Origin: Candidatus Omnitrophota bacterium
GTDB taxonomy: Bacteria; Omnitrophota; Omnitrophia; Omnitrophales; Aquincolibacteriaceae
Length of the DNA stretch: 64,000 nt
Direction: 5' to 3'
Assembly (NCBI GenBank): GCA_035368605.1
Contig: DAOSLF010000005.1
Location: 54,520 to 118,519 of the forward strand
Positions 18,273 through 59,237 of this stretch are shown piece by piece. Below the pieces are notes generated by a model. It did no database searches. It had not been told where the DNA came from and saw only the letters and a list, made by a program, of their open reading frames with translations. The translations under genes were made by a program, and so were the position numbers. How positions within the stretch are numbered: position 1 is the stretch's first letter; every line of letters begins with the position of its first letter.

Positions 18273-18908
18273 CTAACCGGCCGCGGCGTTCCCGCCCATC
18301 CCTTTCACGACATACTCCAGCACGACATCCGCCTGTTTGGCCGCCGCGATGGCGACGCGCGGCGCGAGCGCCGGCGTTCTCCGGATGTCGGAGCGAAGAT
18401 CCCCGATCATCACGAGGTTCTCCCTGATGCGATGGATGCGAATCTCGTCGCTGGCGCCGATCCCCCCGAGTCCCGAAGCGGTCACGAGGAATTTTCCCGT
18501 TGGCAGCAGCGTTTCGACGAACATGCTTTTCGCGTCGGCCTGGTCGAAACATTCCACGACGGCGTCGCATTCCGCGAACACGGAAGGGAGATTCGAGCGG
18601 TCGAGCTTCAGGACGAGCGCGTGAAGGGTCAGGCCCGGAAGCGTCCGGTGAAGGTTCTCGGCCAGCGCCTCGACCTTCGGCCTCCCGACCTGGTCCGCGA
18701 AATAAGCCTGCCGGTCCAGGTTCGTGTCGTCGATCACGTCAAAATCCGCGATCACAAGGTCCCGGAACCCCGAACGCACGAGAGCGGTCGCGCAATTCGA
18801 GCCGAGCCCGCCCGCGCCCGCGATCCCGATCTTCGCGGCCCGCACCCGCCGGAAACCTTCAGCGCCGAGCTTCGCGATCAGGTCCCTTTCGAAGGCTTCG
18901 GGATTCAT
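18273..18908 (-). CDS. thiF: ThiF/MoeB-type E1-like adenylyltransferase (sulfur carrier protein ThiS adenylyltransferase)
   Basis: Rossmann motif IGIAGAGGLGS and ADFDVIDDTNLDRQ. It is the last gene of thiSGHF, overlapping thiH by 4 nt. Confidence 0.85.
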   Translation of the reverse strand: MNPEAFERDLIAKLGAEGFRRVRAAKIGIAGAGGLGSNCATALVRSGFRDLVIADFDVIDDTNLDRQAYFADQVGRPKVEALAENLHRTLPGLTLHALVLKLDRSNLPSVFAECDAVVECFDQADAKSMFVETLLPTGKFLVTASGLGGIGASDEIRIHRIRENLVMIGDLRSDIRRTPALAPRVAIAAAKQADVVLEYVVKGMGGNAAAG

Positions 18909-20017
18909 ATCGGCATCCAGTCCTTCAGGACAGGTTGATAACCTTTCGCCGCGAGCATGGCCTTGATCGCCTCGACATCGCGTTCGTCCGCGATCCGGAA
19001 CTGTGGCGCGCTCCGGTCAGTTTTTGTCGCGAGCGTGTGCCCGCCCACTTCGGTAGTGGAACCCGCCGACATTTTCGTGATCCCCAGAGGAACGAGGTGT
19101 TCCCGGAGTTCCGACGATTCCCGCGTCGAGAGCGTGAGCCCGAGGCGCGACAGGAAAAGCCGCATCGCGAGGATGATCTGGACGAAGTCCCGGTCGCTGA
19201 TCTTTTCATCTCCACGGAAATCGCCTTCGTGGGGCCTGAGACGCGGCACCGAGGCGCCGACCTCCACGTCCGGGAAAGTGTCCTGCAGGTACCGAGCGTG
19301 GAGCCCGAGACGAAAGGCCTCGACGCGCCAATCGCTCAGACCGAGTAATGCCCCGATATTCACAGACCGCATTCCGCTCCTCGCGGCCCGTTCGGGGGCC
19401 TCGAGACGGAACCGGAAATCTTTCTTCGGCCCGGACCGGTGGACGCGGTCATAGACGGCTTCGTCGTAGGTCTCCTGGTAGATCGTGAGACCGTCCACCC
19501 CTTCGGCGGCCAGTTCGGCATACTCGGCTTCCGTGAGCGCGTAGACCTCGACCGAGATCGAACTGAAATGTTTCCTGAGGACCTGGACCGCGTCCCTGAT
19601 ATAAGAGACCGGTGCCCGCTTGCGGGCATCTCCCGTCAGAATAAGGATATGTTCCAGACCGGTCGAAGCGATGTACGCGGCTTCGCGCTCCACTTCCTCA
19701 AGGGTCATGGTCCGCCGCGGCAAACGGTTCGTCGCGTTGAACCCGCAATACTCGCACTGGTTCTCGCAGAAGTTCGAAAGGTACATCGGCGTGTAAAGCT
19801 GGATGACCCGTCCGAACTGCCGGAGGGTGATCTCATGGGCCCGCTGCGCCATAAGCTCGATCTGGTCCGCCGCCGCCGGCGAAAGCAGGGCGAAGAGCCG
19901 TTCGGAACGCGGGTCGTCGTCGAGGACCGCGCGCCGGACCTCCGCGGCCGTCACATCACGGAAGGCGTTCGCGGAAAAAAAATCTTTGTATTGTTGAAGG
20001 GTATCGTAGAAGCTCAT
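18905..20017 (-). CDS. thiH: 2-iminoacetate synthase ThiH (radical SAM tyrosine lyase)
   Basis: The radical-SAM cysteine motif sits in YLSNFCENQCEYCGF. Length is 370 aa, in a thiG/thiF context. Confidence 0.9.
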   Translation of the reverse strand: MSFYDTLQQYKDFFSANAFRDVTAAEVRRAVLDDDPRSERLFALLSPAAADQIELMAQRAHEITLRQFGRVIQLYTPMYLSNFCENQCEYCGFNATNRLPRRTMTLEEVEREAAYIASTGLEHILILTGDARKRAPVSYIRDAVQVLRKHFSSISVEVYALTEAEYAELAAEGVDGLTIYQETYDEAVYDRVHRSGPKKDFRFRLEAPERAARSGMRSVNIGALLGLSDWRVEAFRLGLHARYLQDTFPDVEVGASVPRLRPHEGDFRGDEKISDRDFVQIILAMRLFLSRLGLTLSTRESSELREHLVPLGITKMSAGSTTEVGGHTLATKTDRSAPQFRIADERDVEAIKAMLAAKGYQPVLKDWMPI

Positions 20018-20068
20018 GTTTGATAAACATCGGGGACATACCTCGCATGAAACGGGGTGAGCCCCGAT

Positions 20069-20845
20069 TTATTCATTCCTTAAAAAACCGGTAAGCGGGG
20101 ACGACGCGTTCGCGACCTGGCCCCGCGCGGGAAGTCCGGCAAGGCAGGCCCGGCGGCCGGCGATCACGGCCTCCCGGAAAGCGGCGGCCATCTGAACGGG
20201 ATCCTCCGCGATGGCGACGGCGGTGTTCACGAGGACCGCGGCGCAGCCCATCTCCAGGCACTCGCACGCCTGCGACGGACTGCCGAGCCCCGCGTCCACG
20301 ATGACGGGGACCTTGATCTCACGGACCATGATCCCGACAAGCTCGCGGGTCCTGAGACCCCGGTTGCTTCCGATCGGAGCGCCGAGCGGCATCACGGCCG
20401 CCGCGCCCGCGTCCGCCATGCGACGCGCCATTGAAAGGTCCGGGCTCATATAAGGAAGGACGATGAACCCCTCTTTCACGAGAATCTCCGTCGCCTTCAG
20501 CGTTTCGAGATTCTCCGGCAAAAGGTATTTATTGTCCCGGATGACCTCGATCTTCACCCAGTCCCCCGCGCCGCTCGCCCGCGCGAGTCTCGCGATGCGG
20601 ACCGCCTCGTCGGCGTTGCGGGCGCCGGAAGTGTTCGTCATAAGTACGCATTTTTTGGGGATGAAATCGAGGATGTTGTCCGTGGCGGAAGTGGCATCGA
20701 CCCTGCGAAGCGCGACGGTCACGATATCGGCACCCGAAGCCTCGACGGCTTTTTTCATAACGTCATGGCTCGGGAATTTCCCGGTCCCGAGCAGCAGGCG
20801 GCTCCGGAGTTCGCGGCCGCCGATCCTGAAAAGGTCCGTCATCTC
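20069..20845 (-). CDS. thiG: Thiazole synthase (start taken at MTDLFRIGG, overlapping the thiS stop)
   Basis: [32 protein letters not shown] is a ThiG TIM-barrel signature. It follows thiS. Confidence 0.9.
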
Positions 20846-21044
20846 ACCCTCCTCCGACAAAGCTGATAATCTCGAGGGTGTCGTTCTCGGCAAGCGTCAC
20901 GGTCTCCCATATCTCCCGCGGGACGATCCGGGCGTTGTGTTCGACCACGATCCCCTCGGGACGGAGATTCCTCGCGCCGATGAAGGCGGAAAGATTGACC
21001 GTTTTTTCGATACGCTCTTCTTTTCCGTTGATTCTGATGATCAT
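20844..21044 (-). CDS. thiS: Sulfur carrier protein ThiS
   Basis: 66-aa ubiquitin-like protein ending ...ISFVGGG. It sits upstream of thiG. Confidence 0.8.
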
Positions 21045-21154
21045 GAAGCTGTTCCCTTAAGATGTGCGGCAAGAGGGATTCCCGCGGGTCAGAAAATGAT
21101 ATGGGAATTATAGCGGGAATGGCCGCCGGAAACAACCCGCCCCGAACCCGGGTC

Positions 21155-21403
21155 CTACCCGGAGAAAAAACCTTTGACCCGGTCGAGAAGACCACTCAGG
21201 AATCCGGCCTTCCGAAGGACGCGGGCGCCGCAATAGAGACAATCCATGCTGTCCGCGGGAACGCGTTTCTTGCAGGAAGGGCACGGAACCGTTCCGGGGC
21301 CGAGGATTTCGTCTTTCGCCCATTTCTCCTTCAGGGCTTCGGGCGGCTCTTCGTCCCGGAGCTCCCAATCCTTCGGCTCATCATCTTCAAACATGTTCGT
21401 CAT
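21155..21403 (-). CDS. Small hypothetical zinc-ribbon protein (CPxC...CxxC)
   Basis: 82-aa ORF with an acidic N-terminus and CPSCKK...CLYCG. An AAGGA lies just upstream of the ATG. There is no homology beyond the motif. Confidence 0.35.
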   Translation of the reverse strand: MTNMFEDDEPKDWELRDEEPPEALKEKWAKDEILGPGTVPCPSCKKRVPADSMDCLYCGARVLRKAGFLSGLLDRVKGFFSG

Positions 21404-21575
21404 CCTTGATATCGGGGGCCGTCATTCCCGGCTGAAAACCGGCTGTTCCCGTTTTGAAGGATTGTACTACGAAAAACAATTCCGCCGCGCGGAACTTTCC
21501 GGAAAATCCGCGGGTCTAATCAAATAAAAATGTGAAGGTCCCGCCAAACCGGACCTCACGCCAAAGGAGCCTCTC

Positions 21576-22343
21576 ATGAAAAGAAACCTTTTTATACTCG
21601 TGCCTCTTCTTACCGTGACTCTCGCGATCTTCTCCGCGCGAACCGCTTTCGCGGGGCCAAAACCCGGGCCGGGCATTGACCGGCACAAACATTATGAGCC
21701 TTACTGTCCGCGCCCCGGCCGGTATTACCACACCCTCCCTCCCGGTCATCTCACAATGCGGGTCGCGAACATGCTCTTCTATTACAGGGACGGCGTCTAT
21801 TACCGGGAGACCCCTTCCGGATACGTGATCGTCAACGCGCCCGCGGGGGCCGTGATCCGGGAACTTCCTCCCTATTACAAACAGATTCCGTATGAGAACA
21901 ACGTCTATTACTATTACAACAACACCTATTACGTCCGGCATCCGGCCGGTTACACCGTCGTGAATCCCCCGGCGCAGGTCGTGGTTTCGAATCCGCCTGC
22001 CGTCGAAGCGCCGAAAGAAACGGTCGTCGTGACGGTACCGAACCCGAACGGCAGCTACATCCCGGTCACGCTCGAGAAATACAGTGACGGTTACAAGGGC
22101 CCGAACGGCGAGTTCTATCCGGATTACCCGACCATCGACCAGTTGAAGGCAATGTACGCGGTGGCTTCGGCGACCGCCGAGCGTCCGCTGCCGGAGGAAC
22201 TGGAGTTCCAGGTCCCCAACAGGAACGGCAGCTTTACGAAGGTCACGCTCCGAAGAACGAAGGACGGCTACGTGGGGCCCGAGGGCGAGTATTACAAAGA
22301 CAAGCCCACAATGGATCAGTTGAAGGTCATGTACGCGAAATAA
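21576..22343 (+). CDS. Secreted Tyr-rich hypothetical protein with an internal tandem ~40-aa repeat
   Basis: It has a strong AAGGAG SD and the signal peptide MKRNLFILVPLLTVTLAIFSARTAFA. A YY/GYxVVNPP-rich region follows. Two repeats are NPNGSYIPVTLEKYSDGYKGPNGEFYPDYPTIDQLKAMYA and NRNGSFTKVTLRRTKDGYVGPEGEYYKDKPTMDQLKVMYA. Confidence 0.7.
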   Translation: MKRNLFILVPLLTVTLAIFSARTAFAGPKPGPGIDRHKHYEPYCPRPGRYYHTLPPGHLTMRVANMLFYYRDGVYYRETPSGYVIVNAPAGAVIRELPPYYKQIPYENNVYYYYNNTYYVRHPAGYTVVNPPAQVVVSNPPAVEAPKETVVVTVPNPNGSYIPVTLEKYSDGYKGPNGEFYPDYPTIDQLKAMYAVASATAERPLPEELEFQVPNRNGSFTKVTLRRTKDGYVGPEGEYYKDKPTMDQLKVMYAK

Positions 22344-22372
22344 GGACCGCTGACAAAAAAGGCCGCCCCCTG

Positions 22373-23161
22373 TTACTCCCCGAGGAATTCTCGAAGCCTG
22401 GGACCGATCAGGTCCTTCGATTCAAAGAAACCGTCATTGTGCCCGCCCCGGATCTCAAGGGATTCTTTCGGGTCCGCCGCGGCCCGGAACAGGTCGGCGC
22501 CGAGACGCGGAGGAACGATTTTGTCCTCCCGGCTCCGGATGAAAAGTTTGGGGACCTTGAGCGAGGCAACCGCTTCCCGGGTATCGAACCGGCTCGCCAG
22601 GATCCAGGGCGGGATCACGGGATAATGGGCACGGGCCATGTCCCCGATGTTCGTAAAACTGTTTTCGAAGATTACGGCGCCGAGCGGTCGCCGCGTCGCG
22701 AGATGGGCAACGACGGACCCGCCGATCGATTCGCCATAGCCCGTGATTCGTTCCGGAGGAACCCCGCGTGAACGCAGGTAATCGTACGCCGCTTCGGCAT
22801 CCCGGTAGAAACCCTGCTCTCCCGGCCGGCCTTCGCTGTTCCCGTAGCCGCGATAGTCCAGGATCAGGACCCCGTACCCCAAGCCGTTCAGGAACGCGAG
22901 CTTCTCGATCCGGTGGCTGATGTTCCCCGCGTTCCCGTGACAGAAAAGGAATACTTTGGCGCCTTCCCTGCCGGGCAGATACCACGCGTTCAGTTTCTGC
23001 CGGTCCGTAGTCTCGAAATAAACATCTTCGAACCGGAGACCGTACGCGGAAGGGAGCGCGGCCAGGGGCTTGACGGGAAAAAAGATCGCGCGGCCTTCAA
23101 GGAACCGGACCGCGAGGAACGGGAGCGCTACGAGGGTCAGCAGCGTCAGAAACCTGGTCAT
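22373..23161 (-). CDS. Alpha/beta hydrolase (start at MTRFLTLLTL; the listed ORF is 5'-extended)
   Basis: It has a signal/TM N-terminus, the nucleophile elbow GYGESIGGS, an HGNAGN motif and a downstream His. An SD GGGGAAGG lies upstream. Confidence 0.8.
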   Translation of the reverse strand: MTRFLTLLTLVALPFLAVRFLEGRAIFFPVKPLAALPSAYGLRFEDVYFETTDRQKLNAWYLPGREGAKVFLFCHGNAGNISHRIEKLAFLNGLGYGVLILDYRGYGNSEGRPGEQGFYRDAEAAYDYLRSRGVPPERITGYGESIGGSVVAHLATRRPLGAVIFENSFTNIGDMARAHYPVIPPWILASRFDTREAVASLKVPKLFIRSREDKIVPPRLGADLFRAAADPKESLEIRGGHNDGFFESKDLIGPRLREFLGE

Positions 23162-23210
23162 GAGGGTCACCTTCCCCCGCGATTCCGTCAGCCGCGGAAC
23201 GGTCCGGCGA

Positions 23211-23420
23211 TCATTTGGAGGGCGCGCCGGCACCGCCGCCAACGCCCGTTTTTTTGAGGACCGCCTCGGCAAGGCACCAGCCGGTGAAGGCGGACTGGAT
23301 CAGGTTGAGGCCGACCAGGACGGTCCAGATCAGCCACCAGGGACTCACCAGGACCGCGAGCGCGACGCTCATCAGAATGAAGCTTCCCGCGATAACACGG
23401 ATGTGTTTTTCAATAGTCAT
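23211..23420 (-). CDS. DUF2892 (YgaP-like) small inner-membrane protein, 69 aa
   Basis: The unlisted real start is inside ORF 23211..24008. The sequence is MTIEKHIRVIAGSFILMSVALAVLVSPWWLIWTVLVGLNLIQSAFTGWCLAEAVL..., where LxQSAFTGWC is the DUF2892 hallmark. A GGAGG SD lies 7 nt upstream. Confidence 0.6.
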   Translation of the reverse strand: MTIEKHIRVIAGSFILMSVALAVLVSPWWLIWTVLVGLNLIQSAFTGWCLAEAVLKKTGVGGGAGAPSK

Positions 23421-23429
23421 TTCAGAACC

Positions 23430-23500
23430 TCCGGGTGCGGGGTACAAGGCGGAAAAACCGGACCTTTGCCTCCGGACTCCGCACCCCGTACCTCGTACTA
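23430..23500. repeat. Family-B repeat, copy R4, directly abutting and including the TAG stop of the RND gene
   Basis: The minus-strand reading is CTAGTACGAGGTACGGGGTGCGGAGTCCGG..., nested in a 12-bp outer stem GGCGGAAAAACC/GGTTTTTCCGCC. A large stem-loop sits between the RND gene and the DUF2892 gene. Confidence 0.5.
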
Positions 23501-26500
23501 GGTTTTTTCCGCCATCATATAATAGAACACCGGCACCGCCGTGCGGGACAGGACCGTCGAAGCGATCTCCCCCGCCATGAGCGACACGGCAAGTCCCTGG
23601 AAGATGGGATCGAACAGGATGACCGCGGCTCCGACCACGACGGCCGCCGCCGTAAGGAGCATCGGACGGAACCGCTTCGCGCCCGCGTCGACGACGGCCT
23701 CCTCGAGCGGCATCCCGGCCGCGCGCTGGAGTTCGATGAAATCGACGAGGATGATGGAGTTCCGGACCACGATCCCCGCGCCCGCGATCATACCGATCAT
23801 CGAGGTCGCCGTAAAGAAAACGCCGCCGAGCCAATGCGCGGGCAGGATGCCGATCAGCGTCAGCGGAATCGGGAGCATGATGATCCACGGCGTCTTGAAC
23901 GACTGGAACCAGCCGACCACGAGCGCGTAGATGAGGAGCAGGACGAACGCGAACGCGATCCCGAGGTCGCGGAACACCTCGAAGGTAATCTGCCACTCTC
24001 CGTCCCACTTCACGGTCCAGCGGTCCGCGCTGCGGGGCTGGCCGTTAAAGAGCTGGTCGAGCGTCTTCTGCCCCTCGTGGTTCTCGGGGGCCGGGATCTT
24101 CGCGATGTCTTTTTTGAGCTTCAGAATCGCGTAGGCCGGGCTCTCGAACCGGCCCGCCACGTCCGCGAGCACGTACGAGACACGCATCAGGTTCTTGTGG
24201 TAAATCGCAAGGTCCTTCGTGCCGCTCTCGATATCGACCAGCTCTCTCACGGGGATCGGATTGCCGTACCGTGAAAGCAACGTCATGTTGAGGACACTGT
24301 CGAGCGTCGCGCGTTTTTCCCTGGGGAGCCTGAGGAGAATCTCGACCGGCTCATATTCCTCGGACAGATGGGCAAGGTCCACCGTTTTTCCGCCGATCGC
24401 CGTCGCGACCGCTTCCGCGACCTGGTCAACGGGGATGCCGTTCAGGGAGGCCTTTTCGGTGTTCACCCGCAAGCGGGCGAGTTTTTCGGGAGCCTGGACG
24501 TAAGTATCGATATCCGTCACGCCTTCACTCGAGGCAAGCAGCCGTTCAATCTCCCGCGCGAGCCCGTTCTGCCCTTCGCGCGACGGGCCGTAAATCTCGA
24601 GCACAAGCGTCGAGAGGACCGGCGGGCCGGGCGGAACTTCCGCGACCTGGACATGGCCGCCGTGGGTCCGGACGATCTCATGGATCCTCGGACGGACCGC
24701 CTTCGCGATGTCATGACTCTGGCGTTTCCGGTCGTGTTTCCCGGCGAGGTTCACCTGGAGGTCGGCCTGGTGGGGTCTGGAACGCAGGAAGTAATGACGC
24801 ACGAGCCCGTTGAAATTATAAGGCGCCGCGCACCCGGCGTAGAGTTCGACATCCTTCACCTCCGGCACCGTCACGAGGTAATCGGCGATCTCCGTGATTA
24901 CCTCCCGGGTCTTTTCGATCGCCGTGCCGTCCGGCATGTTCAGGATGACCTGAAACTCGTTCTTGTTATCGAACGGGAGCATCTTCATCCGGACCAGTTT
25001 CAGCGGCACAAGCGCCATCGACGCAAGCAACAGACCGCCGAGAGCCCAAAGAAAAATATGCCGCACCTTCGCGTTACGGATCAGCGGGTTCATGTAGGAG
25101 CGGTAAAGACGGGTCAGGAAATCCTCCCTTTCGCCCTCGTGATGCGCCTTGAGCTTCCCTTTCGCGAACGCGCGGCCGAGAATCTGGTAAGCCGCCCACG
25201 GTGTCGCCACGAACGCGATGACCATCGAGAACATCATCGCCGCGCTCGCCCCGATCGGGATCGGTCTCATGTAAGGACCCATGAGCCCCCGCACGAACGC
25301 CATCGGAAGGATCGCCGCGACCACGGTGAGGGTCGCGAGGATGAGGGGGCTTCTGACCTCGTTGACCGCCTCGATCGTGATATCGAGGATATTTTTCCCC
25401 CTGTTTTCCGGCATCCGCAGATGCCGGACGATGTTCTCGACATCGACGATCGGATCGTCGACCAGTATCCCGATCGAAAAGATCAGCGCGAAGAGCGTGA
25501 TGCGGTTCAGCGTGAAACCGAGGAAATAGAACGTCGCGAGCGTGAGCGCGAGCGTCATCGGGATCGCGATCGCGATGACGCCGGATTCATGCCGTCCGAG
25601 CACCCAGGCGATCAGGACGCTCACGCCGAAGACCGCGATCGCCATATGGAACAGCAGTTCGTCGGATTTCTCCTTCGCCGTCTCGCCGTAGTCGCGCGTC
25701 ACGGTCATCCCGATATCCTTCGGAAGCGTCGCCTCCGGCAATTCCCGGATCGCGTGGAGAATCTCCTCCGACAGTCGGGCCGCGTTCGCGCCCTTGCGCT
25801 TGGAGACCGCGAGCGTCACCGCACCGAAGGGACCTTTTTCCGTTTCCCGGGAAGCCGGGCCGAAAAAAATCTCCGTCGCGCGTTCCTCTTCGTCGGGACC
25901 GTCCGCGACCGCCGCGATGTCTTTCAGCGTCACGACCGCTCCCGCGCTCACGCCGACGACCAGGTTCTCGAGATCGGCCTTCGTGCGAAAGAAGGAGTCC
26001 GATTCGACATGTTCGATCTCGGGAGAACTTTCGAGATGAGCCGCGCCCTGTTTCACGTTGGCGGAGCGGATGATCCCCGCGATTTCGAGCGGGTTCAGCA
26101 GGCGCGCCTTCAGTTTCTCCTCGTCAAAGAACACCTGGAACTGCCGTTTGCGGCCGCCCGTGATCGCGGTCTCCGAAACGTCGGGGATCGCGTTCACGAT
26201 GTTCCGGATGTTCGCGACCGTCCGGCGAAGCGTGACGGGGTCTCTTGCCTTCGAATGAAACGTGAGCGTGAGGATCGGCACGTCGTCGATCGACCGGACC
26301 TTGATGAACGGCTGCGCCGAACCCTGGGGCAGGAAATCGAGATTGGAGTAGATCTTCGTGTAGAGATTAATCAGGCTCTTTTCGGGGTCTTCGCCGACCT
26401 TGAACCGGACAATGATGAGCGCGCCTTCGGGTTCGATCGTGGAGTAGACGTACTCGACGCCGGGGATCTCCCAGAGCTTGCGTTCGCCGAGCGTCACGAT

Positions 26501-26710
26501 CCGCTGCTCGACCTCCTTCGAATCCGCGCCGGGAAACTTGACGAAGATATCGAACATCGGAACCGAAATCTGCGGCTCCTCCTCGCGCGGCAGGTTTATG
26601 ACCGCGAAGACACCGACGACGAGCGATACCGCGATGATGAGGGGCGTGATCTTCGATTTCGCGAAGTAGATGACGATCTTGCCGATGATGTCCGAATGAT
26701 GTGCGCTCAT
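23498..26710 (-). CDS. RND efflux transporter permease (AcrB/HAE1-like), 1070 aa
   Basis: 12-TM protein with two large periplasmic loops and the typical AcrB N-terminus MSAHHSDIIGKIVIYFAKSKITPLIIAVSLVVGVFAVINLP. Confidence 0.9.
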   Translation of the reverse strand: MSAHHSDIIGKIVIYFAKSKITPLIIAVSLVVGVFAVINLPREEEPQISVPMFDIFVKFPGADSKEVEQRIVTLGERKLWEIPGVEYVYSTIEPEGALIIVRFKVGEDPEKSLINLYTKIYSNLDFLPQGSAQPFIKVRSIDDVPILTLTFHSKARDPVTLRRTVANIRNIVNAIPDVSETAITGGRKRQFQVFFDEEKLKARLLNPLEIAGIIRSANVKQGAAHLESSPEIEHVESDSFFRTKADLENLVVGVSAGAVVTLKDIAAVADGPDEEERATEIFFGPASRETEKGPFGAVTLAVSKRKGANAARLSEEILHAIRELPEATLPKDIGMTVTRDYGETAKEKSDELLFHMAIAVFGVSVLIAWVLGRHESGVIAIAIPMTLALTLATFYFLGFTLNRITLFALIFSIGILVDDPIVDVENIVRHLRMPENRGKNILDITIEAVNEVRSPLILATLTVVAAILPMAFVRGLMGPYMRPIPIGASAAMMFSMVIAFVATPWAAYQILGRAFAKGKLKAHHEGEREDFLTRLYRSYMNPLIRNAKVRHIFLWALGGLLLASMALVPLKLVRMKMLPFDNKNEFQVILNMPDGTAIEKTREVITEIADYLVTVPEVKDVELYAGCAAPYNFNGLVRHYFLRSRPHQADLQVNLAGKHDRKRQSHDIAKAVRPRIHEIVRTHGGHVQVAEVPPGPPVLSTLVLEIYGPSREGQNGLAREIERLLASSEGVTDIDTYVQAPEKLARLRVNTEKASLNGIPVDQVAEAVATAIGGKTVDLAHLSEEYEPVEILLRLPREKRATLDSVLNMTLLSRYGNPIPVRELVDIESGTKDLAIYHKNLMRVSYVLADVAGRFESPAYAILKLKKDIAKIPAPENHEGQKTLDQLFNGQPRSADRWTVKWDGEWQITFEVFRDLGIAFAFVLLLIYALVVGWFQSFKTPWIIMLPIPLTLIGILPAHWLGGVFFTATSMIGMIAGAGIVVRNSIILVDFIELQRAAGMPLEEAVVDAGAKRFRPMLLTAAAVVVGAAVILFDPIFQGLAVSLMAGEIASTVLSRTAVPVFYYMMAEKT

Positions 26711-26724
26711 TATCCCTCAACCGA

Positions 26725-26745
26725 ATCCAACCTCGCAGGTTGGAT
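26725..26745. repeat. Family-A palindrome ATCCAACCTCGCAGGTTGGAT (copy 4) in the 38-nt spacer between the TolC-like and RND genes
   Basis: Exact palindrome, with flanks aaccgAATCCAACC...GGTTGGATtggtt extending it to about 34 bp. Confidence 0.8.
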
Positions 26746-26748
26746 TGG

Positions 26749-51843: not shown

Positions 51844-52116
51844 CTTTTTTTGACCTTTCTTTAATCGGTGAAGTAACTTTCGAAAAGATTCCCCTTGAAC
51901 ATGGACTTTCAGGAAAATGGACTTGCGAAAATATGACACCTGATCGAAGAATAAAGACGGCGTATTATACCCGGAAACCCGATTTTCGGAAGGTTTTGTT
52001 TTTATCAAAGGAATGTTATATGATGCCCCGCATGAACCCCGTTGGAGACAGGACCTGCTTTCCGGCAAGTCCTTGTCCGTCCCTTAACGTCGGCTTTCAG
52101 ACAAACCTGTCTTCTT

Positions 52117-53458: not shown

Positions 53459-54772
53459 CTATGGTCCCGTGACGACCTCCGGAATGATCCCCTTCTGCGC
53501 GTAGATGGGGCGGATCTTTGCCTTGACAAGGGGAAGCTTCCTCAAAAAAACAACGGCGCCCGCGACGCAGCAGGCGCCGCTGAAAAAGATCGTAAGGGAA
53601 GCGCCGATCCTGCCCGCGAGCCCTCCGGCCAGGAGACTCCCGAAAGGCGCCATCCCCATGAACGACATCGTGTAAAGGCTCATGACCCTTCCCCGCTTGT
53701 CTTCTTCCACAATGGTCTGAAGGATAGTGTTACAGGAAGCCGTGTGGACGATCATCCCGAAACCCGAGAACCAGCTGATAAGAAGCGAAAGGGAGAAACT
53801 CCTGGACAAGGAGAGCGCGATCATGCTGATCCCGAAAAGACCCGCCATCCGCGCGAGAACCTTTCCCAGCCCGACCACGCTCCTGCGCGCGGCCAGAAAA
53901 AGCGCCCCGGCCAGCGCGCCCGCCCCGGACATGGCCATCAGGAAACCGAGGGTATGCGGCCCGCCTCGGAAAACATCTTTCGCGAACACCGGCATCAGAA
54001 CCGGATAGGCAACGCCCATCAGACTCACAACCGACAGGATAAAAAGAATCCAGCGAATCGGCACGGAACGGAACCCGTAGGCAAGACCTTCCCTCAGTTC
54101 GTGCCAGATCCTTTGCTCCGGAATGAACAGCCTCCCGGCCGCGACCTTCATGGCACAAAGCGACAGCACCACGGGAATATAACTGACCGCGTTCAGGAAA
54201 AAGCAGACCCCTTCCCCCGCCCAAGCGATCAGGAGGCCGGCCGCCGAAGGCCCGATAAGCCGCGCCGCGTTTATCATCGACGAGTTCAGGGCGATCGCAT
54301 TACCAAGATCTTCGCGCTCCTCGACCATTTCGATCGTGAAGGATTGACGGACGGGAATATCGAAAGAATTGATGATGCCCAGAAAAGCGCTCAGCGCGAC
54401 CACATGCCACACCTGTATCCTTTGAGAGAGCACAAGAAAGGCCAGCAGGGACGCCTGCAAAAGGGCCGCGACCTGCGTCACGATCAGAAGGGATCGCCGC
54501 TCATGCCGGTCCGCCAGCACGCCGGCGACCGGCGAGATCAGGAAGGTCGGAATCTGCCCGACAAAGCCCACAACGCCGAGCCAGATCGGTGAACTTGTCA
54601 TGCGGTAGACCAGCCAGCCCACGGCCACCTGCTGCATCCACGTCCCGACCAGCGAGATTCCCTGCCCGAAGAAAAAGAGCCGATAATTGCGGTGCCGCAA
54701 TGCGCGGAACATGGATCGCAAGTCGATTCCGCGGGAAGGTCGGGGGTCCGGAACGCTCATGGCCGGACTCAT
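53459..54772 (-). CDS. MFS transporter (EntS/macrolide-efflux-like)
   Basis: 437 aa with 12 predicted TM segments and the MFS motif region LADRHERRSLL. Its start overlaps the macB stop (ATGA). Confidence 0.85.
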   Translation of the reverse strand: MSPAMSVPDPRPSRGIDLRSMFRALRHRNYRLFFFGQGISLVGTWMQQVAVGWLVYRMTSSPIWLGVVGFVGQIPTFLISPVAGVLADRHERRSLLIVTQVAALLQASLLAFLVLSQRIQVWHVVALSAFLGIINSFDIPVRQSFTIEMVEEREDLGNAIALNSSMINAARLIGPSAAGLLIAWAGEGVCFFLNAVSYIPVVLSLCAMKVAAGRLFIPEQRIWHELREGLAYGFRSVPIRWILFILSVVSLMGVAYPVLMPVFAKDVFRGGPHTLGFLMAMSGAGALAGALFLAARRSVVGLGKVLARMAGLFGISMIALSLSRSFSLSLLISWFSGFGMIVHTASCNTILQTIVEEDKRGRVMSLYTMSFMGMAPFGSLLAGGLAGRIGASLTIFFSGACCVAGAVVFLRKLPLVKAKIRPIYAQKGIIPEVVTGP

Positions 54773-56736
54773 TCGTACCGCAGGGAACGGATGGGATCAA
54801 GGGCAGCGGCCTGTTTCGCCGGCCAAAGGCCGAACAGGATTCCCACACCCGCGGAAAAAAGAAACGCGAGGCAGAGGGAACCGAAGGTAATGATCATCTT
54901 CCACTTCGCGAAGGTTGCGATCAGCCAGGAGACCACACCGGCCAGGGCGATGCCGGTCAGCCCCCCCAGAAAAGTAATCATAACCGCTTCCACGAGAAAC
55001 TGTACCAGGATATCGCGGGACGTGGCGCCAAGCGCCTTCCGAAGACCGATCTCACGCGTCCGCTCCTTCACCGAAACAAGCATGATATTCATGATCCCGA
55101 TCCCGCCGACCACGAGCGAAATCGTCGCAACGCTCCCGAGAAGGATCCCGAAGGTCCGCGTCGTACTGGAGAGCGCGGCCTGAATATCCGCAAAGTTCCG
55201 GATATTGAAACTATCGTAACGGTCGGGCGTCAGGTGATGTCGCCGGATAATCAGGGCGCTGATCTCCTCCTGCGCGGCGGGCATCGCGCCAAGCTCCGTG
55301 ATCTCCGCGTCAACCTAATCCAGATAGTCCTTCCCCATCAGCCGTTTCATGGCGGTCATGAGCGGGATCACAACCATGTCATCCTGGTCGTGAAAGGCGC
55401 TGGCTCCCCGAGAGGGCAGGATCCCGAGAATCTGAAAGTTCACACGATTGATCTTGATCGTTTTTCCGATCGGGTCTTCTGTTCCGAAAAGATTTTTCTG
55501 AACGGTCTGGCCGACCAACGCCACCCGCAAGCGTCTCTGATTTTCGTCCGAAGTGAAAAAACGTCCCGCAACGGGTTCCTGGTTCCTCATTGGGGCGTAT
55601 TCGGGAACCGCGCCGATCACCCGCGTGGTCCAGTTCTTGTCTTCAAACACAAGCTGTCCCTGACCGGTCACCTGGGGAGACACCCTCCTGACCGATGGCA
55701 CTGCGGCGATCGCCCGGGCATCATCAAGCGTCAGGCGCGTTGCCGCCCCCGCCTCAACGCTGGCGCCGCGAACCTTGACCGACCCGGGACGGATCGTCAA
55801 AAGATTGGAGCCCATTCTGGCAAGATCTTCCTTGACCGATTCCGCGGCGCCCCGTCCCAGGGCCAGCATCGTAATCACACAGGCCACCCCGATCAGAACG
55901 CCGAGGATGGAAAGGAACGACCGCAATTTGTTGTTGAGGACCACGCGCCGCGCCAGCCGGAAATGCTCGAGAAATTCCCCGTAATTGTATCTTTTTTTTC
56001 TCAAGCTTCCTCCCCGATCCAGGTCCGCAATCCCTGTCACGGACTGCTCTTTCGCGGGGATCCGCCGTTCATCGCTGACGATCTTCCCGTCATGCATCCG
56101 GACGACACGCTCCGCCTCTTTCCCCACTTCCTCGCCGTGCGTGACAAGCACAATGGTCATGCCTTGCCGGTGAAGCTCCTTGAAGATTCCGAGGATCTCC
56201 TGTCCGGCCCTGGAATCAAGGTTCCCCGTCGGCTCGTCGGCAAGAATCATCAGCGGTTTTGTCACAAGGGCGCGGGCGATCGCGACTCGCTGCTGCTGGC
56301 CTCCCGAAAGTTCGTTCGGGCGATGGCCGGTACGGTTCGAAAGACCGACCCTGGCAAGCATCTCCCGGGACCGGTCGAGGTCCCCCGCGCGGTCATCGGA
56401 ATAAAGCAGCGGGAGACAGACGTTTTCAAGGGCGGTGGAGCGCGCCATCAGGTTAAATTGCTGGAACACAAAACCGACCACCCGGTTTCTGAGGAAGGCA
56501 TACGCTTCGTCCGAAAGGCGGGAGGTGTCCCGGCCCATCAGACGAACCGTTCCGCTGTCGGGCCGGTCCAGGAACCCCAAAAGATGCATCAGCGTGGACT
56601 TGCCGGAACCGGAAGGCCCCATGATCGCGATGAATTCGCCGGCATGGATCGTCAGAGAAACATCCTGAAGCGCGCGAACCTCGACTTCGCCGATCTTGTA
56701 GGTTTTGGAAATGTTTTCGACTTCGAGCAGTTTCAT
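54769..56736 (-). pseudogene. macB: MacB-type ABC transporter (ATPase fused to FtsX-like permease) interrupted by a single in-frame TAG at 55315-55317. Listed as two ORFs, 55315..56736 and 54769..55284, both in the same frame.
   Basis: ORF1 has Walker A GPSGSGKST, signature [17 protein letters not shown]1 and most of the periplasmic domain. Reading through the TAG gives ...DYLD*VDAEITELGAMPAAQEEI... continuing in frame into the FtsX C-terminal TM bundle. Combined length is about 655 aa, the normal MacB size. Confidence 0.75.
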
Positions 56737-57743
56737 GAGGATTTCGTGGCGCCACTTTTTCTGGCGGCGCGCGGCGAGCCGAAAAGATTCGAGGATCTTT
56801 CCTTTTCCTTCTTCCTGACCACCGCGATCTCCGCGCCTTCTTTCAGGCCGTCCGTGATCTCGGTCCTGACGCCGTCGGTTTCCCCCGTCTTGACGGCCAC
56901 CGGTTCCAGTTTGCCTCCGAAAACTTTTTTGTAAACCGCAAAGACCGCACCGGAGGGGTTCGGGATGTTCTTCGGCCAGGCCACGACCGCCTCCGAGGGG
57001 ACCGTAAGAACATTTTTGCAGTCCTTAACGATAAAGGTAACGTTCGCGGTCATCCCGCTCCGAAAAGATTCGGACAACGCTTCCGGGGCCACATCGATCG
57101 CATAGACATTGACGTTGTTTTCGAGCGTGCTTTCGAACGCGATATGGTCGACCGTACCGGGGACAAGCTCGTCCCGGTAGGCGTCCAGCGTGATCTCCAC
57201 CGGCTGAGCGAGCCGGATGAACGCGAGATCGGTCTCGTCCACCAGGGCCTGAACGATCAGGCGGTCGGAAAGGACCACCACCGGATCCGCCGTCGTGACC
57301 GTTTGACCGGGTTCCACCGAGCGAACAATGATCGTCCCGTCGAGCGGGGCAAGGAGCGGCGCGGGCAGATAGGCTTCTTCCCACCGTTTGACAACTTCGT
57401 CGCCCCTGGAACGCGCGGCATCGAGCAGAGCCGCCCTCTCGACCGAGCTCATGCGGGCCAGCACCTGCCCTTTCTTCACTTCGTCCCCTTCGCGCACCAG
57501 CACTTCCTCGATCCGTCCCGCGATCGGCGCCTTGACCTCGACGCGATTATAGGGCTGGACCGTCCCTGTCGAACTGACCGTCACGGACAGGTCTCCGCGA
57601 ACCACCTGGGCGGTCCGGACAATCTGGAGATCCCCCTTCGCCGCCCCGCAGGAGGCAAAAATCCTCATGAGGAGGAACACTCCGATCGCGACCAGGGTGA
57701 ACCTGGCCGGGCGCGAAAGTTTATGGGGTAACGATTTCATCAT
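56733..57743 (-). CDS. macA: Efflux periplasmic adaptor (membrane fusion protein, MacA-like); lipoprotein
   Basis: Start at MMKSLPHKLSRPARFTLVAIGVFLLMRIFASC (lipobox FASC) with a GGAGG SD. It has HlyD-family biotinyl-lipoyl and beta-barrel segments. It overlaps macB (ATGA) and the upstream OMP gene by about 20 nt. Confidence 0.85.
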   Translation of the reverse strand: MMKSLPHKLSRPARFTLVAIGVFLLMRIFASCGAAKGDLQIVRTAQVVRGDLSVTVSSTGTVQPYNRVEVKAPIAGRIEEVLVREGDEVKKGQVLARMSSVERAALLDAARSRGDEVVKRWEEAYLPAPLLAPLDGTIIVRSVEPGQTVTTADPVVVLSDRLIVQALVDETDLAFIRLAQPVEITLDAYRDELVPGTVDHIAFESTLENNVNVYAIDVAPEALSESFRSGMTANVTFIVKDCKNVLTVPSEAVVAWPKNIPNPSGAVFAVYKKVFGGKLEPVAVKTGETDGVRTEITDGLKEGAEIAVVRKKEKERSSNLFGSPRAARKSGATKSS

Positions 57744-59061
57744 AAGCATCCTCCAGGGTGGCGCCCTGTGTTTTTTCCCAATTGGCCTGCTGAGTAAAAA
57801 CATCGGCCAGGCTTTCGACATAATCTTTTTCGGCGTTCGCATTCTCCTGTTCCGCGGTATCAAAATCCGTGAAATTGACGAGCCCGCTCGTGTATTCCGC
57901 CCGGATGATCTCGGCGCGCTTCTGCGCGGCCTCAAGGAATTTCTTTTTCACGCTGACCGCGTCAACCGCGTCCGCGTACGGTACCCAGGCGGCCGACAGG
58001 GCGGCGATGGCCTCGTCACGGGCACTTTTCGCGGCGCTTTCGGCGGCATCGTAATCCGCTTTCGCCTTCCGGATCGCCGCGACGTTCTTCCCGCCCTCAA
58101 AGAACGGGACCGACACACGAACGCCAAGGGAGCTCTGGTCTTTCAAGCGGGACGCGCGATCGCCTGTATAACCGTACTCATAGGTCCCGTCGACCCGGGG
58201 CCACACGGCCGATTGGGCCGAAACGACATTCGCCCTGGACGCTTCGGCCGTTTTAAGGAGCCTCATCACCGCGGGCGTCTTTTCGGCCAACGCGACATAA
58301 TCCGCCTCCGACAGCGTGACGCCGCCAAGCATTTTCTCCAGACCATCCGTGATCCGGAGCGGAAGCAAAAAATCCCCGCCGCTTTCGCGCGCAAGACGGA
58401 GCGATTCTTTTTCAAGCAGACGCTCCGTCTGCTTGACGTCAAAGCCGGCCTGATCGGCGATCGCCTCCGCCCGGAGGGCCGATCCCACGTTCTCGCGGCC
58501 GGCCTCGTAGCGGAGACGAACCATTTCCGCGTTTTGCTTGCGTCTCTCGAGGATCTGCCGGTTCGTCTTCAAAAGCCTTTCCAGACGGATCACGCTTATA
58601 TAGGAAGACCGCAGGCGGTAACGGACGTCCGCGCTGGTCTCGTCGTAGGCCATACGGGCCGCTTCAAGTTCCTTGCGGGCCTTGATCCAGTCTCCCGTCG
58701 TCCCGAACCCGTTAAAAAGGTTCTGACTCGCGTTGATATCGAGACTGAGCGTGTCCGCATGGGCCCCGGGCATGGTCTTTCGCGAAACATTCTTTTGCAT
58801 GCTCCCTTCCACCGAGGGAAGAAAATCTCCTAGCGCGATGTCGCGATTACGGGCGGCCGATGTCACGCGGGAGCGGGCTCCCCGGAGGTCGGGATTCCGG
58901 CTAAGGGTCTGCCGGACGAGACCCTCCCAGGTCAATGTTTCGGGCTCGGCGCGACGCTCGATCTTCGCCTGGGGCAGGCTGACGGTCCGGCAGCCGCCCA
59001 GAAAAAAAACGGCGGTTAACGCCGTTATCGCGAACTTCCATCTCGCCGTGTTCTGCCGCAT
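57721..59061 (-). CDS. TolC/NodT-family outer-membrane efflux lipoprotein
   Basis: Start at MRQNTARWKFAITALTAVFFLGGC (lipobox LGGC), followed by two OEP repeats. It is the first gene of the OMP-MFP-MacB-MFS operon. Confidence 0.85.
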   Translation of the reverse strand: MRQNTARWKFAITALTAVFFLGGCRTVSLPQAKIERRAEPETLTWEGLVRQTLSRNPDLRGARSRVTSAARNRDIALGDFLPSVEGSMQKNVSRKTMPGAHADTLSLDINASQNLFNGFGTTGDWIKARKELEAARMAYDETSADVRYRLRSSYISVIRLERLLKTNRQILERRKQNAEMVRLRYEAGRENVGSALRAEAIADQAGFDVKQTERLLEKESLRLARESGGDFLLPLRITDGLEKMLGGVTLSEADYVALAEKTPAVMRLLKTAEASRANVVSAQSAVWPRVDGTYEYGYTGDRASRLKDQSSLGVRVSVPFFEGGKNVAAIRKAKADYDAAESAAKSARDEAIAALSAAWVPYADAVDAVSVKKKFLEAAQKRAEIIRAEYTSGLVNFTDFDTAEQENANAEKDYVESLADVFTQQANWEKTQGATLEDAYDEIVTP

Positions 59062-59237
59062 GCTTCGTCTTGTCCTTATGTTGGTGCCTTCAGGTTTGAC
59101 CGCTAAAACGCCGACAAAGTTCCGCTTGTCTGAAATTGTGGTATCGTTCGGGGAGAGGCCGGAAGGCGCTGTTCTCATCGCGGGGGACGCGATCCGGGTC
59201 CGGGACCTTTTGTCCGTGAAATTCCGGAAGGTGTATC

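What the first reader, a model, noticed from the sequence alone, without database searches (positions are those of the whole stretch)
21576..22343. Secreted Tyr-rich protein with YY/GYxVVNPP motifs and two ~40-aa tandem repeats of unknown function
It has a strong SD and a clear signal peptide. The N-terminal half is packed with aromatic dipeptides (YYRDGVYYRETPSGYVIVNAPAG...YYYYNNTYYVRHPAGYTVVNPPAQ). The C-terminal half is two diverged repeats of NxNGS(Y/F)xxVTLxxxxDGYxGPxGE(F/Y)YxDxPTxDQLKxMYA.

I recognise no catalytic motif or known domain. The composition suggests a cell-surface or adhesive/structural protein, or a peptide-modification substrate. It sits alone between the thi operon and an alpha/beta hydrolase.
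Basis: seen in the sequence. Interest (0 to 1): 0.5.

Follow-up and report, generated by a model that had tools for sequence, protein, structure and literature searches.

The report
ECF-controlled secreted DUF6515 envelope protein
This is a real, exported envelope protein of an uncultivated Omnitrophota bacterium: a known but uncharacterised Tyr-rich domain (DUF6515) followed by two copies of an undescribed 47-residue C-terminal module, and it carries the promoter of an envelope-stress sigma factor, which gives this orphan family its first functional context.

Summary
ORF 21576-22343 (+) encodes a 255-aa protein with a Shine-Dalgarno site, a signal peptide, 11.4% Tyr and two internal duplications, both far above shuffle controls.

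Residues 41-141 match Pfam DUF6515 (68.6 bits, cut-off 24.9), and NCBI already names orthologues "DUF6515 family protein".

The two C-terminal repeats are copies of a ~47-aa module that no Pfam-A family covers and that has no relative among solved structures. An exhaustive HMMER search finds it in 1006 protein clusters. It occurs in 1-6 copies, nearly always at the extreme C-terminus of small secreted proteins, mostly from Omnitrophota.

In 31 of 78 related genomes the family's gene sits next to an ECF sigma factor, a zinc-finger anti-sigma and an LTXXQ/Spy-like protein, often with a TolC-HlyD-MacB pump. One motif, GGAACTT-N16-GTCTAA, precedes the module gene, the sigma gene and the LTXXQ gene.

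In the window that motif (with GTCWAA as the -10 box) occurs only twice: upstream of this gene and upstream of a TolC-HlyD-MacB operon.

Best reading: a Sec-exported member of an envelope or metal-stress ECF regulon. Its biochemical role is still inferred. It is a new variant of a known uncharacterised family, of moderate interest.

The parts
21491..21497 (+). -35 element GGAACTT of a predicted ECF-sigma (RpoE-like) promoter
   Evidence: GGAACTT-N16-GTCTAA is the only such match in 64 kb on both strands; 0.01 expected by chance. The same motif lies upstream of the family's gene in 39/84 loci (54 with a PWM) and upstream of the ECF sigma and LTXXQ genes in related loci.
21514..21519 (+). -10 element GTCTAA of the same promoter, ending 56 nt before the ATG
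   Evidence: Family consensus: GGAACTTTTt-N11-tTGTCTAA from 55 unique sites.
21564..21569 (+). Shine-Dalgarno AAGGAG, 6 nt before the start codon
   Evidence: Read from the sequence.
21576..22343 (+). Complete coding sequence: 255 aa plus stop. Mature protein 229 aa, about 26 kDa, pI 8.6.
   Evidence: There are 57 homologues, and full-length orthologues of 254-273 aa share 48-72% identity.
21576..21653 (+). Sec-type signal peptide (residues 1-26). Predicted SPase I cleavage after AFA; no lipobox Cys.
   Evidence: Sequence features; AlphaFold helix at 8-23; A26 invariant. Only 4 of 169 family members have a lipobox-like motif.
21654..21767 (+). Linker (residues 27-64), disordered in its first half and rich in His, Arg and Pro
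   Evidence: pLDDT is below 50 at residues 33-41. Across 142 family members this region has 5.6% His against 0.8% elsewhere, and 9.1% Arg against 2.3%.
21696..21998 (+). DUF6515 (PF20125) domain, residues 41-141: eight beta-strands forming two four-stranded Tyr-rich hairpin units (65-98 and 108-141)
   Evidence: Pfam 68.6 bits against cut-off 24.9, E = 8.3e-19. pLDDT is above 90 with strands at 59-129. Internal duplication score 82 against 25 +/- 5.
22017..22163 (+). C-terminal module copy 1 (residues 148-196): beta-beta-beta-alpha, motif VPNxNGS..V.L....GYxGPxGEFY...PT..QLKxMY
   Evidence: The module profile finds 1006 cluster representatives. No Pfam, NCBIfam or PDB match.
22194..22340 (+). 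C-terminal module copy 2 (residues 207-255), ending at the protein's C-terminus (...MYAK)
   Evidence: Same calls as copy 1. The last module ends 15-17 residues after its GYxGPxGExY core in 152 of about 170 proteins.
59095..59123 (-). Second ECF-type promoter in the window (GGAACTT-N16-GTCAAA), about 35 nt upstream of a TolC-like lipoprotein gene: a predicted co-regulated unit (inferred)
   Evidence: GGAACTT-N16-GTCWAA has exactly 2 window matches against 0.01 expected. PWM score 16.7 bits; the next best site scores 6.2. Sequence context.
53459..59061 (-). OEP - HlyD - MacB (ABC+PCD, FtsX) - MFS_3 operon, the same pump type that follows the ECF cluster in related genomes (association inferred)
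   Evidence: Pfam OEP 2e-47, HlyD_3 1e-16, MacB_PCD 4e-45, ABC_tran 4e-34, FtsX 2e-20, MFS_3 2e-60. Synteny in other Omnitrophota.

Best explanation
The gene encodes a Sec-exported envelope protein of an Omnitrophota bacterium. After the signal peptide comes a basic, His/Arg/Pro-rich flexible linker. Next is a DUF6515 domain built of Tyr-rich beta-hairpins. Last come two beads-on-a-string copies of a previously undescribed ~47-aa beta-beta-beta-alpha module that marks the extreme C-terminus of a large family of small secreted proteins.

The gene is read from an ECF-sigma (RpoE-like) promoter. It belongs to an envelope-stress, possibly metal-stress, regulon. In many relatives that regulon is physically clustered as [this gene] - ECF sigma - zinc-finger anti-sigma - LTXXQ/Spy/ZraP-like periplasmic protein - (TolC-HlyD-MacB pump).

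Shown here: domain composition, conservation, the export signal, synteny in relatives, and the shared promoter motif.

Inferred: when the membrane anti-sigma releases the sigma factor under envelope stress, this protein is induced together with the Spy-like protein and the MacB pump. It then acts in the periplasm or at the outer envelope as a non-enzymatic binding or protective protein. The aromatic beta-sheet and the His/Arg tail would bind the stressor or damaged envelope material. The C-terminal modules would provide docking or self-association common to the whole family.
For: Domain identity: PF20125 at 68.6 bits. Orthologues are all Omnitrophota where named, and several are named 'DUF6515 family protein'.

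Module: its profile hits 1006 cluster representatives at E <= 1e-3 and 581 at <= 1e-10. It is strictly C-terminal. 62 of 140 carriers also have DUF6515; others have Gly-zipper, WXXGXW, DUF6600 or OMP beta-barrel domains, all envelope-type.

Structure: mean pLDDT 82.9; the two modules are independent units.

Synteny: in 78 non-redundant genomes, a same-strand ECF sigma lies within 6 kb in 31, and a sigma-module or pump gene in 41. Gaps to the sigma gene are 4-160 bp. The anti-sigma has HxxxCxxC plus a TM segment in 31/31. The LTXXQ protein scores PF13801 39 bits (cut-off 29.2) and PF07813 26 bits. The pump is MacB_PCD plus HlyD.

Promoter: GGAACTT-N16-GTCTAA lies upstream of the module gene (39 strict, 54 PWM), the ECF sigma (9, 15) and LTXXQ (9, 13). 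It is unique in the window upstream of this gene, with 0.01 expected. A second, -10-variant site precedes the window's TolC-HlyD-MacB operon.

Close two-module orthologues that have lost sigma linkage keep the promoter. More distant two-module orthologues (L003, L021, L022, L024) keep the operon.

The arrangement (zinc-finger anti-sigma at +1, PF13801 protein at +2) is the one reported for group ECF281 and linked there to heavy-metal stress (PMC7826278).
Against: No ECF sigma, anti-sigma or LTXXQ gene is present in the 64-kb window, so the cognate sigma of this genome is unseen.

The promoter is a sequence prediction with no transcript data.

The GTCWAA variant used for the second window site was chosen after seeing that site, although GTCAAA does occur in family sites.

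Genes in the loci were called by a crude longest-ORF method and grouped by single-linkage BLAST.

About half of the loci show no sigma or pump gene within 6 kb; some of those are truncated contigs.

By sequence the sigma is closer to SigE/RpoE (E = 1e-25 to 1e-20) than to CnrH (5e-8), and the LTXXQ protein has no significant PDB relative. The metal-stress reading therefore rests on gene arrangement alone.
Confidence: 0.62

Rival explanations
1. Periplasmic metal-binding or buffering protein of a Cnr/Czc-like metal-resistance circuit. The His/Arg-rich tail, and perhaps the Tyr-rich sheet, would bind Ni, Co, Zn or Cu. The LTXXQ/PF13801 protein would sense the metal, the ECF sigma would induce the system, and the pump would export the metal.
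For: A PF13801 'heavy-metal resistance' protein sits at +2 and a zinc-finger anti-sigma at +1, as in ECF281, which the authors link to heavy-metal stress. The post-signal linker is enriched seven-fold in His across 142 members, and some members have runs such as GGHGGGHGGGHWGHG. An efflux pump lies in the cluster.
Against: No His, Cys, Asp or Glu cluster is invariant. The invariant residues are Gly, Pro, Tyr and Asn, which look structural. Only 13% of linkers reach 10% His. The pump is MacB-type rather than an RND/CzcA-type metal exporter. The sigma is nearer to RpoE/SigE than to CnrH. ZraP similarity of the LTXXQ protein is not significant, E = 0.29.
Confidence: 0.2
2. Cargo or accessory of the MacB-type tripartite pump. 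The protein would reach the periplasm through Sec and then be expelled to the cell surface through TolC-HlyD-MacB, as reported for E. coli enterotoxin STII (from my own knowledge). The invariant C-terminal module would be the recognition element. On the surface it would act as a coat or adhesin.
For: In at least 9 loci the module gene directly follows OEP-HlyD-ABC on the same strand, with gaps of 18-177 bp. In others the pump follows the sigma module. 16 of 78 loci have the pump within 6 kb. The module is strictly C-terminal and shared by proteins with unrelated N-terminal parts, as expected of a targeting or docking element. In the window both units carry the same promoter type.
Against: The module occurs in up to 6 tandem copies, which is unusual for a targeting signal. 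Most loci lack a nearby pump. There is no experimental precedent for this module, and co-regulation alone would also produce the linkage.
Confidence: 0.12
3. Precursor for post-translational modification (Tyr cross-linking or RiPP-like), or a sortase-type anchored surface protein.
For: High Tyr/Pro content and repeats. A radical-SAM gene lies 1.5 kb away.
Against: That radical-SAM gene is ThiH (Radical_SAM plus BATS) inside a thiS-thiG-thiH-thiF cluster. No modifying enzyme, sortase or peptidase family recurs among the neighbours in 86 loci. Both domains are predicted to fold stably at high confidence. No LPXTG or PEP-CTERM-like hydrophobic tail is present; the protein ends in ...QLKVMYAK.
Confidence: 0.03
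4. Peptidoglycan-tethered envelope protein, Lpp-like, attached through its C-terminal lysine (...YAK-COOH, compare Lpp ...YRK-COOH, from my own knowledge).
For: The window protein and 49% of family members end in Lys, preceded by Tyr-Gly/Ala. The location is in the envelope.
Against: The last residue varies across the family (K 76, N 27, R 17, D 12, S 7 of 155). Close orthologues end in KD, KN, KS or KGNA. There is no lipid anchor and no L,D-transpeptidase as a conserved neighbour.
Confidence: 0.03

Closest known systems
Pfam PF20125 (DUF6515), family of unknown function
   Same: Residues 41-141 match the family model well above threshold. They share the YYY..G.YY....GY.VV..P hairpin repeats and the small secreted-protein format. 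NCBI already labels orthologues 'DUF6515 family protein'.
   Different: Only model positions 41-141 of 179 are matched. The protein adds two C-terminal modules that are outside the Pfam model and unrelated to the hairpins (hhalign probability 1%). The family has no solved structure and no functional literature.
ECF group ECF281 gene arrangement (Casas-Pastor et al. 2021, PMC7826278): ECF sigma, zinc-finger anti-sigma at +1, PF13801 heavy-metal-resistance protein at +2
   Same: Relatives of this gene sit at position -1 of exactly that arrangement. The anti-sigma has HxxxCxxC plus a TM segment in 31/31. The +2 protein passes the PF13801 and LTXXQ thresholds.
   Different: Membership of the sigma in ECF281 was not tested with the group's models. 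The paper text searched here mentions no DUF6515 gene or MacB pump for this group. In the window itself the sigma module is absent.
E. coli sigma-E (RpoE) envelope-stress regulon and its promoter consensus GGAACTT-N16-TCTAA (from my own knowledge)
   Same: The promoter has a near-identical bipartite motif and spacing. The sigma gene appears to be autoregulated. The regulon consists of periplasmic or outer-envelope proteins. The sigma's best PDB relatives are SigE/RpoE-type.
   Different: The anti-sigma is a zinc-finger type rather than RseA. An LTXXQ protein occupies the RseB position. The predicted regulon includes a MacB pump and this DUF6515 protein, which have no E. coli counterparts in the sigma-E regulon.
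CnrYXH nickel/cobalt sensing system of Cupriavidus metallidurans (ECF291)
   Same: Logic: an ECF sigma plus a small membrane anti-sigma plus a periplasmic PF13801-class protein, controlling an efflux pump.
   Different: CnrH is only a distant hit (5e-8 against 1e-25 for SigE). The anti-sigma type and gene order differ, and the pump is RND there but MacB-type here. No DUF6515-like component is known in Cnr.
Pfam PF19079 (CFSR, collagen-flanked surface repeat, 49 positions)
   Same: Similar length. Weak sub-threshold overlap with the beta-strand part of the module in a few proteins (P0068, 17.7 bits).
   Different: The threshold of 27 bits is not reached. Only 2 of 60 isolated modules hit, at E about 0.01, and the window protein gives no hit. 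No carrier has collagen-like flanks.

Membership tests
Pfam PF20125 DUF6515 | Whole-protein HMM score at or above the gathering cut-off (24.9 bits) | tested here: met
   68.6 bits, E = 8.3e-19, residues 41-141 on model positions 41-141 of 179. All 57 homologues carry PF20125.
Pfam PF20125 DUF6515 | Full-length coverage of the family model | tested here: not met
   Model positions 1-40 and 142-179 are unmatched. This is a partial match, but it is enough for family assignment.
Sec/SPase I secreted protein | N-terminal signal peptide with positive n-region, hydrophobic h-region and an AxA cleavage motif | tested here: met
   MKRN / LFILVPLLTVTLAIF / SARTAFA|G; helix at 8-23 in the model; conserved in 29 orthologues. 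This is a heuristic reading, as no dedicated predictor was available.
Bacterial lipoprotein | Lipobox L-x-x-C at the cleavage site | tested here: not met
   No Cys lies in or next to the signal peptide. Only 4 of 169 family members have a lipobox-like motif.
ECF-sigma regulon member (RpoE-like promoter) | Bipartite GGAAC(TT)-N16-(G)TCTAA motif at a suitable distance upstream of the start codon | tested here: met
   Located at 21491-21519, ending 56 nt before the ATG. Unique in 64 kb with 0.01 expected. Conserved upstream of orthologues and of the sigma gene itself.
ECF-sigma regulon member (RpoE-like promoter) | Sigma-dependent transcription start at that site | not testable with these tools
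   No transcript data are available, and the cognate sigma gene is not in the window.
ECF281-type signalling module (PMC7826278) | Zinc-finger anti-sigma at +1 and a PF13801 protein at +2 of the ECF sigma | tested here: met
   Met in related loci only: HxxxCxxC plus TM in 31/31; PF13801 39 bits against cut-off 29.2; gene order. Absent from the window.
ECF281-type signalling module (PMC7826278) | Assignment of the sigma factor to group ECF281 by the classification's own models | not tested
   The group HMMs are not available here. PDB comparison only shows a SigE/RpoE-like ECF.
Pfam PF19079 CFSR | HMM score at or above 27 bits | tested here: not met
   The window protein gives no hit at E <= 1. 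Among isolated modules, 2 of 60 hit at E about 0.01. P0068 scores 17.7 bits.
Type 1 secretion (RTX-like) substrate | No N-terminal signal peptide; C-terminal signal; GGxGxD repeats; HlyB-type ABC exporter | tested here: not met
   A signal peptide is present, there are no RTX repeats, and the associated ABC protein is MacB-type with a periplasmic core domain.
Lpp-like peptidoglycan-linked protein | Invariant C-terminal lysine | tested here: inconclusive
   The window protein ends in K, but only 76 of 155 family members do.

The most novel reading that the evidence does not exclude
The 47-aa C-terminal module could be a new, portable envelope-targeting or docking domain. It would tie otherwise unrelated Sec-exported proteins (DUF6515, Gly-zipper, WXXGXW, PXPV-repeat, OMP beta-barrel) to one machine. 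That machine could be the MacB-type tripartite pump, giving a two-step protein secretion route with a folded C-terminal recognition domain. Or it could be the anti-sigma/LTXXQ sensor, making these proteins the reporters whose state triggers the ECF response, analogous to the OMP C-termini that activate DegS in the E. coli sigma-E pathway.
Probability: 0.15. Interest if true: 0.75.

Novelty: new variant of a known kind. Interest (0 to 1): 0.42.

Why it matters
DUF6515 is an orphan family with no function, no structure and no literature. Omnitrophota are uncultivated, so gene function there has to be read from sequence.

This analysis yields three testable results:
- A conserved module that is in no Pfam family yet appears in about a thousand protein clusters.
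- A predicted ECF regulon for Omnitrophota, with its promoter motif and its members: sigma/anti-sigma, a Spy/ZraP-like protein, a MacB-TolC pump and this protein.
- A corrected gene model, since the public call lacks the signal peptide.

If the module proves to be a docking or export signal, it would define a new sorting principle for envelope proteins in the Omnitrophota/Planctomycetota lineage.

Tried and rejected
- **Word-index search with the C-terminal half alone:** it retrieved only 4 candidates and was uninformative. The exhaustive HMMER search replaced it.
- **PDB sequence searches:** none for the protein; best E = 0.26 for the module profile.
- **NCBIfam:** noise only.
- **Rfam over the whole window:** only a tRNA. 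There is no riboswitch or RNA element near the gene.
- **Sigma-70 promoter scan of 21000-22600:** no site.
- **CFSR (PF19079) as the identity of the module:** rejected. DUF1687 hits are short sub-threshold matches to the GPxGExY turn.
- **Module as a diverged DUF6515 hairpin:** rejected; hhalign probability 1%.
- **Collagen-like flanks:** none found, although GY(V)-GP(E)-GE(Y) formally makes three Gly-X-Y triplets.
- **Lpp-like terminal lysine as a family feature:** not supported.
- **Frameshifted fragment of a larger gene:** rejected by the end-to-end orthologue alignment.
- **Conserved local context in the window (thi genes, alpha/beta hydrolase, RND pump):** not conserved in orthologous loci.
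- **ECF, anti-sigma or LTXXQ homologues elsewhere in the window:** none by tblastn at E <= 1e-3.
- **Literature:** two papers mention DUF6515, neither functionally. An 'LTXXQ + ECF + anti-sigma' search gave nothing relevant.
Full report
**1. The observation**

The ORF at 21576-22343 (+) is real: ATG start, 255 codons. AAGGAG lies 6 nt upstream of the start. The N-terminus MKRNLFILVPLLTVTLAIFSARTAFA|GP has the three regions of a Sec/SPase I signal peptide and no lipobox cysteine. AlphaFold models residues 8-23 as a helix, and Ala26 is invariant among 29 orthologues.

Tyr makes up 11.4% of residues and Pro 12.2%. Both internal duplications are far beyond chance:
- C-terminal pair (148-196 against 207-255): local alignment score 149, against 22.7 +/- 4.5 for shuffles.
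- Tyr-rich pair (65-98 against 108-141): score 82, against 25.2 +/- 5.2.

The ORF is not a fragment. Orthologues of 254-273 aa align end to end at 48-72% identity. One public gene call (P0001, JGI, 195 aa) starts at Met61 and loses the signal peptide. Conservation upstream of Met61, the SD site and the promoter position all favour the long form.

**2. What the two halves are**

The N-terminal half is not unknown. Residues 41-141 match Pfam PF20125 (DUF6515) at 68.6 bits against a 24.9-bit cut-off. All 57 homologues carry that domain. Where a source names them, they come from Candidatus Omnitrophota MAGs, and several are already called 'DUF6515 family protein'. DUF6515 has no functional literature and no solved relative.

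The model (mean pLDDT 82.9) shows:
- a flexible linker, with pLDDT below 50 at residues 33-41;
- eight strands in two four-stranded hairpin units, with pLDDT above 90;
- two beta-beta-beta-alpha units.

Modelled alone, the two C-terminal units behave as independent beads joined by a disordered linker (pTM 0.42).

The C-terminal repeats are the most conserved part of the protein. A 49-position profile of the unit was searched exhaustively against 1.84 billion representatives. It found 1006 proteins at E <= 1e-3 and 581 at <= 1e-10. The unit occurs in 1-6 copies. Its consensus is TVNIPNxNGSYTPVxLxKxxxGYxGPQGEYYxxxPTVEQLKxLYGK.

In 152 of about 170 proteins, the last copy ends 15-17 residues after its GYxGPxGExY core, at the very C-terminus. 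Among 140 carriers, 62 also have DUF6515. Others have Gly-zipper, WXXGXW, DUF6600 or OMP beta-barrel domains. A five-copy form occurs in a Planctomycetaceae MAG under the name 'PXPV repeat protein'.

**3. Context**

In the window the gene stands alone. Upstream on the opposite strand are thiS-thiG-thiH-thiF and a small zinc-ribbon-like ORF. Downstream, convergent, is an alpha/beta hydrolase, followed by an AcrB-type RND pump and an OEP. None of this is conserved in orthologous loci.

A scan of one genome per species for GYxGPxGE[FY]Y gave 319 confirmed stretches, and the best 80 loci were fetched. Almost all are Omnitrophota, with a few labelled Planctomycetia, FCPU426 or Fibrobacterota. Because the list is ranked by similarity to the query, it does not bound the taxonomic range.

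I called ORFs in these loci and clustered the neighbours by BLAST. This revealed a recurrent same-strand arrangement:
- the module gene;
- an ECF sigma factor, after a gap of 4-160 bp;
- a 150-180-aa protein with HxxxCxxC and one TM segment, in 31/31 members;
- an LTXXQ/PF13801 protein (39 bits against a 29.2-bit cut-off);
- often OEP-HlyD-MacB after that (MacB_PCD 1e-33).

Variants place the module gene after LTXXQ or directly after the pump genes. In 78 non-redundant loci, 31 have the sigma gene and 41 have a sigma-module or pump gene within 6 kb on the same strand. These are lower bounds, since many contigs are short.

The two-module form splits into two groups. The more distant orthologues (L003/L004, L021, L022, L024; 52-59% identity) keep the operon. 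The closest ones (L007-L020) and the window gene do not. The window contains no homologue of the sigma, anti-sigma or LTXXQ genes.

**4. The promoter**

Upstream of the family's genes lies a bipartite motif, GGAACTTTTt-N11-tTGTCTAA, that is GGAACTT-N16-GTCTAA, 50-110 nt before the start codon.

| Scan | Module gene | ECF sigma | LTXXQ | Elsewhere |
|---|---|---|---|---|
| Strict pattern, + strand sites | 39 (of 84 loci) | 9 | 9 | 5 |
| PWM, + strand sites | 54 | 15 | 13 | rest |

The strict counts come from 1.7 Mb scanned on both strands. A motif that precedes the sigma gene itself is what an autoregulated ECF promoter looks like. It is close to the E. coli sigma-E consensus (my own knowledge).

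In the window the strict motif occurs once in 64 kb, at 21491-21519, ending 56 nt before the ATG, with 0.01 matches expected. The close orthologues that have lost linkage to the sigma gene keep the motif.

Allowing the -10 variant GTCAAA, which also occurs in family sites, gives exactly one more window match, at 59095-59123 (-). That makes two matches against 0.01 expected. The PWM scores are 22.3 and 16.7 bits, with the next site at 6.2. The second site lies about 35 nt upstream of a lipoprotein-type OEP gene, followed by HlyD, MacB (ABC+PCD, FtsX) and an MFS_3 transporter. This is the same pump type that follows the sigma module in other genomes. The -10 variant was admitted after the site was seen, so this second site is supporting evidence only.

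**5. Comparison with what is known**

The arrangement 'zinc-finger anti-sigma at +1, PF13801 heavy-metal-resistance protein at +2' is the one that ECF classification 2.0 reports for group ECF281. That paper links ECF281, together with ECF290 and the CnrH group ECF291, to heavy-metal stress (PMC7826278).

Group membership of the Omnitrophota sigma was not tested. By sequence its nearest solved relatives are SigE, SigH and RpoE (7e-25 to 3.5e-20), with CnrH much further away (5e-8). The LTXXQ protein's best solved hit, ZraP, is not significant (E = 0.29).

The family-wide linker after the signal peptide is enriched in His (5.6% against 0.8%) and Arg (9.1% against 2.3%). This is compatible with metal or polyanion binding, but the enrichment is modest.

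**6. Interpretation**

Shown:
- The gene is a real one for an exported protein.
- Its composition is DUF6515 plus two copies of an undescribed, widely distributed C-terminal module.
- Family members are physically linked to an ECF sigma/anti-sigma/LTXXQ module and a MacB pump.
- A shared ECF-type promoter motif also precedes the window gene.

Inferred:
- The window gene is induced by that sigma under envelope, possibly metal, stress.
- The protein acts without catalysis in the periplasm or outer envelope.
- The module provides a docking or association function common to the family.

Rival readings are listed with their tests: metal buffer, pump cargo or surface coat, peptidoglycan tethering, and modification substrate. 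The last two have little support.

The finding is a new variant of a known but uncharacterised family. Its value lies in the new module, the predicted regulon and the corrected gene model.

Noticed in passing
window 59095-59123 (-) and 53459-59061 (-): A second ECF-type promoter (GGAACTT-N16-GTCAAA) lies directly upstream of a TolC-like lipoprotein / HlyD / MacB / MFS_3 operon. This is probably the same regulon as the finding's gene.
   Followed up: partly
window 54769-56736 (-): The MacB-like transporter is split into two ORFs: ABC plus periplasmic core domain at 55315-56736, and the FtsX permease domain at 54769-55284, 31 nt apart. This could be a frameshift, an assembly error or a genuine split.
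   Followed up: no
window 21576-21755 (+): The public JGI gene call for this protein (P0001, 195 aa) starts at Met61 and omits the signal peptide and linker. The 255-aa form is the conserved one.
   Followed up: yes
window 18273-21403 (-): The thiS-thiG-thiH-thiF cluster has no TPP riboswitch at the Rfam gathering threshold. An 82-aa zinc-ribbon-like ORF (CPSC...CLYC, 21155-21403) with no Pfam match sits upstream of thiS.
   Followed up: no
window 21478-21496: An inverted repeat, AATTCCGCCGCGCGGAACT, overlaps the -35 box of the predicted promoter. The scan flagged it as terminator-like on the minus strand. It could be a regulatory hairpin or operator, or a coincidence.
   Followed up: no
P0060-P0062 (metagenomic proteins; P0060 cluster member MCE5341369.1, Planctomycetaceae MAG): These proteins carry 5-6 tandem copies of the C-terminal module behind a His/Gly-rich and PXPV-repeat region, without DUF6515. 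The module is therefore a mobile unit and is not restricted to Omnitrophota.
   Followed up: partly
loci L029, L031, L034, L053, L063, L065: In some genomes a second, shorter LTXXQ-like protein (about 128 aa) lies immediately downstream of the module gene (gaps 11-49 bp). The module gene is then flanked by two Spy-like genes.
   Followed up: no
window 44977-52068 (-): A very large ORF of 2363 aa. It was not examined.
   Followed up: no
window 22373-28146 (-): Downstream of the finding, on the opposite strand, lie an alpha/beta hydrolase, an AcrB-type RND transporter (1070 aa) and an OEP. No ECF-type promoter was found there, and this neighbourhood is not conserved in orthologous loci.
   Followed up: partly
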